A stretch of 64,000 nucleotides of DNA from Octopus vulgaris (lineage: Eukaryota), in contig OX597818.1 of the NCBI GenBank assembly GCA_951406725.2, forward strand, positions 22,382,001 to 22,446,000. Reading direction: 5' to 3'. Within the stretch, counting starts at the first letter, position 1; the number at the start of each line of letters is the position of its first letter. Of the stretch, positions 30,101-33,100 are shown piece after piece. Below the pieces are notes generated by a model that was not told the origin of the DNA, did not search any database, and saw only the letters and a list, made by a program, of their open reading frames with translations. The position numbers and the translations under genes were made by a program.

Positions 30101-33100
30101 AGATATCAATTTAAGATCTGATTTAATTGTATCAATTAATGTTTTCGGGTAACCCCTTTGCTGTTTCAGGAGAGGGCTCTCAGCTTGAAGGCATCTCATA
30201 GTGAAAAAGGGAAAAGATGGTGCTCCAGCATGGTCTTGGCTGTGAAACAAGCTAAAGAATTAAAGAGCTTACCACATCAGTCTGGGTGCTGAAGACAAAC
30301 TGTTCCACACTCTCAGGTGCCATCCATTTCACTGGTAACTTGGCAGTGTGGTCCTCGGTGAAGTAGAAGTCCTTGCTGAACAGTTCATTGGTCAGGCCAA
30401 TGTCAGTGAGTTTTACCGTCTTATAATCACACAACCTGGTGGATAGTAAAATAGACAAGAGAGAGTAAGTGAGTGAAATGATATCAGACTGAGAGAGAGA
30501 GAGAGAGATGGGAAGATAGAGTGACACAGAGAAAGAAAAAGAGAAAGGATGTTAATCCTGGAAGGATGAAAGGCAAAGTCAACTCGGAAGATGGAGAGAC
30601 ATAGTTAAATACCATAAAGTATTTTGACCAATACTCCAATTTTGATTAAGTAATAATAATGGTAACAATGGAGTTGGTGGTGGTGATGATAATAGTAGTG
30701 ATGGTAATGATGATGATTGTGATGGTGGTGTAGATGATGATGATGATGATTAAAGTTATACTTACAAACAATTTCTTGCAGCCAAATTGTGATGTACGAC
30801 CTTCAGTTCAGATAAGTAGGTCATTCCTTCTGCCACTTGGAGACCATAATCTAATAGAGTGCACACTGACAATGACTGGCAACAAAGAGAGAATTGAATA
30901 GGGAGTTTAAGGGTCAGGCATACACTCACTCGTTTTTAACTAAACAAAAAAATGCTTAATTGTAGAAGAAAATTTTACAACAAAAACAATTTATTATAAA
31001 AGTCACTTACTTTGCTGGAATCCCTAATGTGGGTGCGGAGGTCTACTGTTTCCATATAAGGAACAACAACCACAGGATCATCACTGATGGTCAAGCAGAC
31101 ACCAATTATTGGTAGGACATTCTTATGCTGGAGTTCCTTAAACACCAACGAATCCCTCAGAAACTGTTGTAGAGCCTTCTGGTCAGTGTTAGTGCCTGTG
31201 GTAGCAGGAATCAGAGAAACAGTGTTTTAAAGTAATCTAAATTAAAACCATTCATCAAAATTTCATATTAATTCATGTTCCAAACACCAGTTTAATAATC
31301 CTTTCAGCTATAGGCACAAGACCTGAAATTTTGGGAGCAGGGGCTCAACAGGTACTTATTTCACTGACCCCCAAGTAGATGAAAGGTAAAGTTGACCTCA
31401 GAAACATTTGAACTCAAGTCATACACTACTTTAATAGTAAAGTTATTTTAGTAAATTTATCATTATTCTTTTTTTAATGAATTAAAACAAAGGTGGCGTG
31501 TCCTTCAAGAAAAATATGGTAATATAATAACTTAAACCGCCACATCCTCCTCCTCATCATCATCGTCATCATCATCATCATCATTGTTTAATGTCCGTTT
31601 TCCATGCTGGCATGGGTTGGATGGTTTGACTGAGGTCTGGAAAGCCCACAGCTGCACCAGACTCCAATCTGATCTGGTGCAGCCACAGGCTTTCCAGACG
31701 TCAGTCATACCGTCCAACCCATACCAACATGGAAAACGGACGTTAAATAATCATGATGATGATAATGATAGTTAAGTTATATTTCATTAGAAAATGGAAA
31801 ACTGGATCAAAGCCAGACAAGGGAGACAGACTGATGATGATACATATTTGAGGTCAACCAATTAGCAAACAAAATAAATTGGCATAGATCAAAGAGAAAT
31901 TAAGGAAAACTCAAAGAGTAGAAAACTCCCAGATGAATTGATTCTAATGCCATAGATGAATCAATTTAAAAATGATAACAGAGTTGACATGAAGATTATA
32001 GATTAATAAGTTTAAAGATCATATATGATTCAACTAAAAGATCTTGTTTTGCTGTATTTGAAGTTTTTTAAAAATATCTAAGTTGGAGAAAAGCAGCATC
32101 CCAGACTAACAAAGTGGCTGAGGTTGGCTTGACCTTTTGTAAGTGAATGGTTACAGAGAAAAAAATATAATAAGGAAATTCTAGACTGAAGATGTTCAGG
32201 GAATGAATGATTGGGTAAAGTGTTTAGTATGGTGTTTGGAGTGTGAGAAGCAATAATGAGAAGAAGAAAGTCTAGCATGTTGTGTAGAGAAGGCGGCGAG
32301 CTGACAGAACCGTTAGCACGCCGGGCGAAATGCGTAGCCGTATTTTGTCTGCCATTACGTTCTGAGTTCAAATTCCGCCGAGGTCGACTTTGCCTTTCAT
32401 CCTTTCGGGGTCAATTAAATAAGTACCAGTTATGCAATGGGGTCGATATAATCGACTTAATCCGTGTGTCTGTCCTTGTTTGTCCCCTCTGTGTTTAGCC
32501 CCTTGTGGGTAGTAAAGAAATAGGTATGTAGTTTACTACTATAGAAGCATTGTAATTGCAGTATAAGAAGGTCGGAGAAGAAACACCATATCTGTTAGTC
32601 TTCTGTCATCTCCCAATTTAATTGGCAATGGGTCTCTTTTTCACAAACCATTGACAGGTTGTAAGGGATTCACCAGCATACTTTACACACACACGCACAC
32701 ACACAAATATACATAAATGTACAATACATTGCATGTATAATTTATAAAATTAATTTACCTTGTAAAGACTTGACAGCAACAGTCATAGGTGGTTCACTGT
32801 CACATTTAGTAAACTGGGCCTTGTACGCAACACCAAAGTTACCTGTTGTGAATGAAAGTTAATATTGCAATGGAGATGTCTAACATTGAAATCACAGAAA
32901 ATATTAAATAAGGGAGTTTTGAATTAAGGAGACAAATTTATGATGGTTTCATTTATTAAGTTATATAAACTGAATGTATATAAATAGGAAAGAGAATAAA
33001 AAAAATAAGTTATTTAGTTCCAAGTCAGCACTAAGATCAAAGCTGATCTTGATGTGATTATCTTATTTTCTTTTTGTACAGTGATTTGTACAGTGATTTG

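What the first reader, a model, noticed from the sequence alone, without database searches (positions are those of the whole stretch)
30273..32842. MET/RON-family receptor with a pseudokinase domain
Seen: catalytic loop [11 protein letters not shown] (HRD->HHN, 30786-30794), DIG instead of DFG (30396-30404), and alphaC QQFLRD where MET has QFLTE. The Gly loop (GKGNFG), VAVK lysine, LAARN Asn and APE are kept, and the 1140-aa frame and all splice sites are intact. Known: Asp->Asn in the catalytic loop typifies ErbB3, whereas vertebrate MET and RON are active kinases. Inference: a nucleotide-binding, catalytically impaired MET-class receptor or co-receptor. I do not know whether this has been described.
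Basis: partly seen in the sequence, partly recalled or inferred. Interest (0 to 1): 0.8.

Follow-up and report, generated by a model that had tools for sequence, protein, structure and literature searches.

The report
Kinase-dead plexin–MET hybrid receptor of molluscs
This octopus gene joins a full plexin outer part to a MET-type kinase domain that lacks its catalytic aspartate, a defect shared by its relatives in snails, bivalves and other cephalopods, so it is likely a kinase-dead co-receptor that would need an active partner kinase to signal.

Summary
In detail: HHN for HRD, DIG for DFG and Asp for the alphaC Glu lie in an intact gene; spliced contigs from four studies carry the Asn codon. 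It is not the octopus MET, which is intact on another contig. It is a Met-LP receptor (complete plexin ectodomain plus MET-type kinase; PMC6374515), 100% identical to O. vulgaris CAI9722484.1 over the 1,140 aa in the window. The new point: the loss is clade-wide. None of 39 mollusc-clade orthologues keeps Lys+Asp+Asp together (37 have HxN; two scallops have HGD but GFG), including the Aplysia protein that founded the class, whereas annelid, brachiopod and hemichordate Met-LPs keep HRD/DFG. The kinase is relaxed (51% vs 72% for MET in matched genera) while the transmembrane helix is hyper-conserved (80% vs about 32%; GxxxG 39 of 39) and three cytoplasmic tyrosines persist. Best reading: a HER3/Off-track-like non-catalytic co-receptor, phosphorylated in trans. 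Ligand, partner, ATP binding and inactivity are untested. Eight full-text searches found no description of Met-LP as a pseudokinase.

The parts
26977..62775 (-). Met-LP gene, 24 coding exons in the window = residues 460-1599; N-terminal Sema exon(s) lie beyond the window end
   Evidence: (100% to P0121 over 1,140 aa)
50153..62775 (-). Nine exons for PSI1, TIG1, PSI2, TIG2, PSI3: the plexin-only part of the ectodomain that MET lacks
   Evidence: Pfam TIG_plexin 539-618, TIG_2 685-776, three PSI stretches
37161..49289 (-). Seven exons for the membrane-proximal IPT/TIG repeats
   Evidence: Pfam TIG, three stretches pass here and four in the Aplysia orthologue
35649..35726 (-). Transmembrane helix (residues 1207-1232) with G1211-x-x-x-G1215
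   Evidence: (GxxxG 39 of 39)
35613..35615 (-). Juxtamembrane Tyr1244 (NYIP), Tyr in 30 of 39 orthologues
34367..34486 (-). Exon: juxtamembrane helices (Tyr1277, 36 of 39) and start of the Gly loop
32759..32842 (-). Exon: end of Gly loop (NFG) and beta3 VAVK lysine (kept)
31011..31195 (-). Exon: alphaC helix with Asp1355 in place of the conserved Glu, hinge
30766..30875 (-). Exon: catalytic loop [11 protein letters not shown]; Asn1432 (30788-30786, AAT) replaces the catalytic Asp
30273..30435 (-). Exon: DIG (30404-30396) for DFG, activation loop with one of MET's two tandem Tyr kept (FY), LPVKWMAPE
28760..28896 (-). Exon: alphaF to alphaH of the C-lobe
26977..27160 (-). Last exon: end of C-lobe and tail ending [10 protein letters not shown]; Tyr1594 kept in 30 of 39

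Best explanation
The gene encodes a single-pass receptor with a complete plexin ectodomain and a MET-type kinase domain lacking the catalytic aspartate, and it likely works as a kinase-dead co-receptor that is predicted to pair through its conserved membrane helix with an active tyrosine kinase, which would phosphorylate its tyrosines in trans. Shown here: architecture, intact spliced transcript, loss of HRD-Asp and alphaC-Glu, one origin of the defect at or before the split of cephalopods, gastropods and bivalves, relaxed kinase with hyper-conserved transmembrane helix, kept cytoplasmic tyrosines, loss of MET's YxN tail motif, and an intact MET, two plexins and three further Sema loci in the same genome. 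Inferred: (1) no or negligible phosphotransfer; (2) a semaphorin-type ligand, from the plexin-derived Sema domain; (3) pairing through the GxxxG helix and ectodomain with an active partner, MET being the first candidate; (4) phosphorylated Tyr1244 and Tyr1594 recruit SH2 proteins, giving an output different from MET's own; (5) in octopus the pocket may still bind Mg-ATP, but that is not required across the clade.
For: Catalytic triad: 0 of 39 aligned orthologues keep Lys, HRD-Asp and DFG-Asp together; HRD position Asn 37, Asp 2; alphaC Glu 7 of 39. Three further mollusc fragments (Solemya, Lottia, Candidula) are HRN too, while the other 74 of 77 single-kinase MET-like representatives and added Lingula control tabulated are HRD. 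The clade is 100/99 in two trees and follows mollusc classes; two changes of state suffice. Activation-loop and HRD-Arg constraint is lost: activation segment 45% vs 84% identity, Arg kept 18 of 39. Kinase identity 50.6% vs 72.1% for MET in 10 matched genera, lower in 45 of 45 (non-independent) pairs; transmembrane 80% vs 32% in 9 matched genera (one MET helix was mis-picked, which lowers the MET figure somewhat). Fold kept: pLDDT 89.6, best structural matches MET-ATP 3dkc Z 37.0, rmsd 2.9, 305 aligned and RON 3pls Z 36.2. YxN in tail 2 of 39 vs 13 of 14 METs. Precedents, from passages: HER3 has HRN, lacks the alphaC Glu, binds ATP and activates partners in trans (PMC13519141); plexin-B1 associates with MET and ErbB-2 and is phosphorylated on Sema4D binding, and inactive OTK co-precipitates with plexins (PMC2172401).
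Against: Nothing here measures activity, ATP binding, ligand or partner. The tail Tyr is missing in 9 of 39 and the juxtamembrane Tyr1244 in 9 of 39, several heterodont bivalves lacking the EYLEV tail altogether, so docking tyrosines are not universal. Mollusc MET helices mostly lack GxxxG (2 of the 11 mollusc METs printed, one of the 11 mis-picked), so the helix may serve self-pairing or a plexin or other partner instead. Cephalopods keep Lys, DxG-Asp, the catalytic-loop Asn and a MET-like LPVKW loop, and HER3 with the same defects has low reported activity. Co-expression with MET was not examined.
Confidence: 0.55

Rival explanations
1. Plexin co-receptor or decoy: the protein tunes semaphorin signalling by binding ligand or pairing with a plexin in cis (as Off-track or neuropilin do), and the dead kinase domain is a scaffold or trafficking module, with no need for trans-phosphorylation by MET.
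For: Sema domain falls among plexins (97 SH-aLRT, quick tree), nearest a group holding the octopus C5 plexin (85, unstarred). Four of ten plexin helices printed contain GxxxG. An acidic [DE]xx[PLK]L element lies in the tail of 23 of 39. Tail Tyr is dispensable in 9 of 39.
Against: A strict [DE]xxxL[LIM] sorting motif is present in only 7 of 39 and I ran no chance control on the looser one. A pure decoy would not need a whole kinase fold kept at 51% identity, more than the Sema domain at 35%.
Confidence: 0.25
2. Weakly active kinase: the domain binds Mg-ATP and autophosphorylates slowly when clustered, and that activity matters.
For: Gly2, Lys, catalytic-loop Asn and DFG-Asp all intact in 31 of 39 including octopus; the HRD position is only ever Asn or Asp; the Tyr matching MET Y1235 is kept in 34 of 39. 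Low activity is reported for HER3 and JAK2 with HRN.
Against: 8 of 39 have lost one of those residues, two unionid mussels both Lys and DFG-Asp; alphaC Glu absent in 32 of 39; the loop before APE is degenerate outside cephalopods.
Confidence: 0.13
3. Self-pairing scaffold: it homodimerises through the GxxxG helix and signals through cytosolic kinases (Src or Abl type) or adaptors, without another receptor.
For: GxxxG and a following Pro are present across the clade; juxtamembrane segment 55% identical.
Against: No test of self-association was run; GxxxG is also in two active Met-LPs, so it predates the loss of catalysis.
Confidence: 0.12
4. Decaying gene or assembly error with no function.
For: Kinase evolves faster than MET. 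The nucleotide test was too small to help: against run X20, 2 nonsynonymous and 2 synonymous changes in 295 coding bases (227 and 68 sites).
Against: Full-length open frames of about 1,520-1,660 aa in most of 39 orthologues over three mollusc classes; spliced contigs in five studies; 109 invariant columns; confident fold.
Confidence: 0.02

Closest known systems
Met-LP RTK (Met-like with plexin ectodomain; PMC6374515), Aplysia Met-LP1 XP_012936725
   Same: Same Pfam architecture; the Aplysia protein is P0023 and sits in the same 100/99 clade.
   Different: The paper treats Met-LPs as tyrosine kinases ('pseudokinase' 0 occurrences in the main text). The mollusc members, its own Aplysia example included (HRN, DYV), lack the catalytic Asp; annelid, brachiopod and hemichordate Met-LPs keep HRD/DFG.
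MET / RON receptor tyrosine kinases
   Same: Closest kinase by sequence (E 5e-76 MET, 3e-68 RON) and by fold; MET-like juxtamembrane helices.
   Different: Three PSI plus TIG1/TIG2 instead of one PSI; no catalytic Asp or alphaC Glu; YxN tail motif lost; a separate intact MET exists at G000:C2:113.47-113.52 Mb.
HER3/ErbB3
   Same: HxN catalytic loop, missing alphaC Glu, kept Lys and DxG-Asp, tyrosine-bearing tail (passages).
   Different: Different kinase family (EGFR domains score E 2e-47 vs MET 5e-76) and ectodomain, so the likeness is convergent; ATP binding and allosteric activation are untested here.
PTK7 / Drosophila Off-track (OTK)
   Same: Inactive RTK linked to plexin signalling (passage).
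   Different: OTK is a separate chain that associates with plexin; here the plexin ectodomain and the dead kinase are one chain, and the kinase is MET-type.
Plexins A and B
   Same: Whole ectodomain matches Plexin-A1/A4/A2 structures in one stretch (E 6e-154 vs 2e-49 in two stretches for MET; cephalopod orthologue P0133).
   Different: No cytoplasmic GAP domain; the genome's two plexins are at C5:85.3-85.8 Mb and C15:19.1-19.2 Mb.

Membership tests
Met-LP RTK | Complete plexin ectodomain (Sema, three PSI, TIG1, TIG2, IPT repeats) | tested here: met
Met-LP RTK | MET-type tyrosine kinase domain in place of the plexin GAP | tested here: met
Met-LP RTK | Orthology to the named member Aplysia Met-LP1 (XP_012936725) | tested here: met
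   kinase 100/99; Sema 100
Canonical MET/RON | Truncated ectodomain: Sema, one PSI, four IPT | tested here: not met
   (P0121 vs mollusc METs P0076, P0093)
Canonical MET/RON | Intact HRD, DFG and alphaC Glu | tested here: not met
Canonical MET/RON | Tail docking tyrosine in a YxN context (Grb2 role recalled, not from a call) | tested here: not met
   2 of 39 vs 13 of 14
Canonical MET/RON | Kinase derived from the mollusc MET lineage | tested here: inconclusive
   Free trees separate the clades but the AU test does not reject a joint mollusc clade, p 0.078
Plexin | Cytoplasmic Ras-GAP domain | tested here: not met
Plexin | Semaphorin binding | not testable with these tools
   Only homology of the Sema domain
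Pseudokinase (sequence definition, PMC13519141) | Absence of one or more of VAIK-Lys, HRD-Asp, DFG-Asp | tested here: met
Pseudokinase (sequence definition, PMC13519141) | Kinase fold retained | tested here: met
   (predicted model)
Pseudokinase (functional) | No measurable phosphotransfer | not testable with these tools
   needs an assay
HER3-like nucleotide-binding pseudokinase | HxN loop and missing alphaC Glu with Lys and DFG-Asp kept | tested here: met
HER3-like nucleotide-binding pseudokinase | Binds ATP and Mg2+ | not testable with these tools
   residues intact in 31 of 39; no binding test
HER3-like nucleotide-binding pseudokinase | Pairs with and activates an active RTK | not tested

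The most novel reading that the evidence does not exclude
Molluscs evolved their own HER3: a phylum-wide semaphorin receptor with a dead MET kinase that pairs with the active MET through its membrane helix, so that semaphorins switch on MET-type tyrosine signalling through a dedicated receptor rather than through a plexin.
Probability: 0.25. Interest if true: 0.75.

Novelty: new variant of a known kind. Interest (0 to 1): 0.52.

Why it matters
Met-LP was described as a new class of tyrosine kinase receptor with unknown ligand; if the mollusc members are catalytically dead, the class splits into active (annelid, brachiopod, hemichordate) and pseudokinase (mollusc) branches and any work on it in octopus, Aplysia or oysters must look for a partner kinase. 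It adds a MET-family receptor pseudokinase; none of the eight human receptor pseudokinases listed in PMC13259870 (abstract) is of that family. It gives a natural series for how a receptor kinase dies: close active relatives, HER3-like convergence, later losses of Lys or DFG-Asp in some bivalves, and an Asn-to-Asp return in scallops that have lost DFG-Asp. Databases label these proteins 'plexin-A' or 'hepatocyte growth factor receptor', which hides the feature.

Tried and rejected
Consensus error: rejected. True MET orthologue: rejected. Cephalopod-only oddity: rejected. My first impression that every orthologue has HxN was wrong: two scallops have HGD. dN/dS from laid contigs: too few changes (X20 2 nonsynonymous, 2 synonymous; X13, X17, X19 two synonymous each). 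The run search listed no holder on record as RNA; splicing in the contigs, not the label, is the evidence of transcription, and contig depth says nothing on level or tissue. Complex prediction of Patella MET with Patella Met-LP: tool not available, nothing folded, no evidence either way. AU test on kinase origin: not decisive. Strict dileucine motif: 7 of 39, not supported. Search for an experimental MET D1204N mutant: one unrelated paper. Earlier findings by sequence, words and place: nothing. Kwon et al. 2019 pseudokinase survey (PMC6997932) is not held. Rows left out of the 39-sequence count: P0043 (second Mya model) and P0044 (Pinctada model lacking the catalytic loop); P0053 is a second Babylonia paralogue and was kept; nine rows are unnamed and assigned to the clade by tree or similarity only. 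The representative search shows only the best 150 of 5,274 hits at 1e-30, and I tabulated 77 single-kinase rows of 126, so HxN Met-like proteins outside molluscs are not excluded.

Full report
OBSERVATION. The minus strand carries a 24-exon reading frame from 62775 to 26977, 1,140 aa plus stop, every intron GT-AG. HHN is at 30794-30786, DIG at 30404-30396, and the alphaC Asp aligns with the Glu of human MET. Gly loop, beta3 Lys, catalytic-loop Asn and APE are present. The protein is identical to residues 460-1599 of O. vulgaris CAI9722484.1 (P0121) and 98.5% to O. bimaculoides XP_014769592; residues 1-355 are on one exon 16 kb beyond the window. Spliced contigs from five studies join the kinase exons (X2, X3, X7, X13; X19, joint 30875 to 31011 with CT..AC ends); four of them show the catalytic-loop exon with no difference, and two unspliced contigs (X17, X20) keep the Asn codon. 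The feature is real and transcribed.

WHAT IT IS. Pfam finds Sema, three PSI stretches, TIG_plexin, TIG_2, IPT repeats and a tyrosine kinase; mollusc METs run beside it have one PSI and no TIG_plexin or TIG_2. A cephalopod orthologue's ectodomain matches whole Plexin-A1/A4/A2 ectodomain structures in one stretch (E 6e-154) and MET only in two (2e-49); the Sema domain groups with plexins in a quick tree. The kinase is closest to MET and RON by sequence and predicted fold (pLDDT 89.6; 3dkc Z 37.0, rmsd 2.9, 305 aligned). This is the Met-LP architecture of PMC6374515 (abstract, passages and supplement search read). The genome holds a separate MET with FLTEA, HRDLAARN and DFG on C2, two plexins with GAP domains and three further Sema loci, presumably semaphorins, not verified.

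THE DEFECT IS CLADE-WIDE. Of 120 listed homologues, 39 sequences including P0121 were aligned as the orthologue set (two left out, see Tried and rejected). At the HRD-Asp position 37 have Asn and 2 (scallops) Asp; the scallops have GFG for DFG; none of the 39 keeps Lys, Asp and Asp together; alphaC Glu survives in 7. The paper's own mollusc example, Aplysia XP_012936725, is P0023 and reads HRN and DYV. A search of 1.84 billion representatives added Solemya, Lottia and Candidula, all HRN; the other 74 of 77 single-kinase rows tabulated are HRD. Met-LPs of Paralvinella, Lingula, Glandiceps and unnamed P0087 keep HRD, DFG and the Glu. In two kinase trees (57 and 42 rows) the defective proteins form one clade at 100/99 with cephalopods, gastropods and bivalves as subgroups, apart from mollusc METs; the scallops nest inside it, so two changes explain the pattern: one Asp-to-Asn early, one return in scallops. 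The link to annelid Met-LP is weak (90/89 and 88/67) and a joint clade with mollusc MET is not rejected (p-AU 0.078), so the source of the kinase domain is open. The deepest member, P0008, is unnamed.

WHERE SELECTION SITS. Mean pairwise identity among the 39: Sema 35%, PSI1-PSI3 47%, IPT 47%, transmembrane 73%, juxtamembrane 55%, kinase 51%, tail 31%. In 10 matched genera MET kinases are 72% identical and Met-LP kinases 51%, the largest drop being in the activation segment (84% vs 45%). The transmembrane helix shows the reverse: 80% vs 32% in nine genera (one MET helix mis-picked), with GxxxG in 39 of 39. Tyr1244 (30 of 39), Tyr1277 (36), the Tyr matching MET Y1235 (34) and Tyr1594 (30) persist, while a YxN tail motif is in 2 of 39 against 13 of 14 METs. 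Residues for Mg-ATP are intact in octopus and 31 of 39; 8 have lost one or more.

MECHANISM. A kept kinase fold with relaxed catalytic parts, an unusually fixed membrane helix and kept tyrosines fit a non-catalytic receptor that works with a partner. Precedents read as passages: HER3 (HRN, no alphaC Glu, binds ATP, activates partners; low activity of unclear importance; PMC13519141); plexin-B1 with MET and ErbB-2, and inactive OTK with plexins (PMC2172401). I put 0.9 on effective loss of catalysis, 0.55 on co-receptor signalling with trans-phosphorylation, and less on MET as the partner, since mollusc MET helices mostly lack GxxxG. The roles given to GxxxG, YxN and SH2 docking are recalled knowledge, not call results. 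Rivals are a plexin co-receptor or decoy, a weakly active kinase (strongest in cephalopods, which keep LPVKW), and a self-pairing scaffold.

NOVELTY. The class is known. Its pseudokinase state was not found in print: PMC6374515 has no 'pseudokinase' in its main text; PMC10084454 (one passage) repeats that Met-LPs have tyrosine kinase domains; PMC13259870 (abstract and passages) has no whole-word 'MET' or 'plexin'; PMC8662651 (passages) has no 'mollus'. Eight full-text searches (listings only except where stated) showed nothing on it. Limits: subscription papers, Kwon et al. 2019 and the supplementary PDF of PMC6374515 (too large; the sequence archive was cut) could not be read and may bear on this. 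Verdict: real, a new variant of a known kind, of solid interest to pseudokinase and semaphorin specialists; 0.52.

Noticed in passing
P0045, P0047, P0048, P0072, P0107 and others: Horseshoe crab, spider, tick, mite and millipede proteins have Sema/IPT plus an intact MET-type kinase and group with METs, whereas PMC6374515 states that no Mets are detectable in Ecdysozoa.
   Followed up: partly
P0279 (Glandiceps talaboti XP_077977579): A hemichordate protein with a plexin-type ectodomain and intact HRD/DFG kinase: Met-LP architecture in a phylum not covered by the passages I read.
   Followed up: partly
P0018, P0019 (scallops): HGD with GFG and Lys at the alphaC Glu position, nested inside the Asn clade: an apparent Asn-to-Asp return in a domain without DFG-Asp.
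   Followed up: partly
P0140 and P0207 (Solemya ScPMuIL_009273, _009275); P0007 and P0093 (Patella SNE40_014038, _014077): Locus tags suggest a plexin-like gene next to Met-LP in Solemya and MET near Met-LP in Patella; Met-LP and MET share the longest-contig length in six genera. In this genome Met-LP and one plexin are on C5 (63 Mb apart) and MET on C2. Linkage inferred from tags and lengths only.
   Followed up: no
P0053 (Babylonia), P0010 (Mytilus): A second, faster-evolving Met-LP paralogue with a degenerate N-lobe in Babylonia; a 2,290-aa Mytilus MET model with two kinase domains, possibly a fused gene model.
   Followed up: no
window 34798-34830: A short copy of the acceptor and first 26 or so bases of the transmembrane exon lies in the following intron.
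   Followed up: no
window 17099-18201, 2454-2684, 11331-11843: ORF pieces that look like Tc1/mariner transposase fragments and a zinc-knuckle retroelement-like piece (labels recalled, no family search). No other clear gene seen in 1-26900.
   Followed up: no
G000:C3:87.74 Mb, C6:25.16 Mb, C8:65.73 Mb: Three Sema-domain loci apart from the plexins, MET and Met-LP: candidate semaphorin ligands.
   Followed up: no
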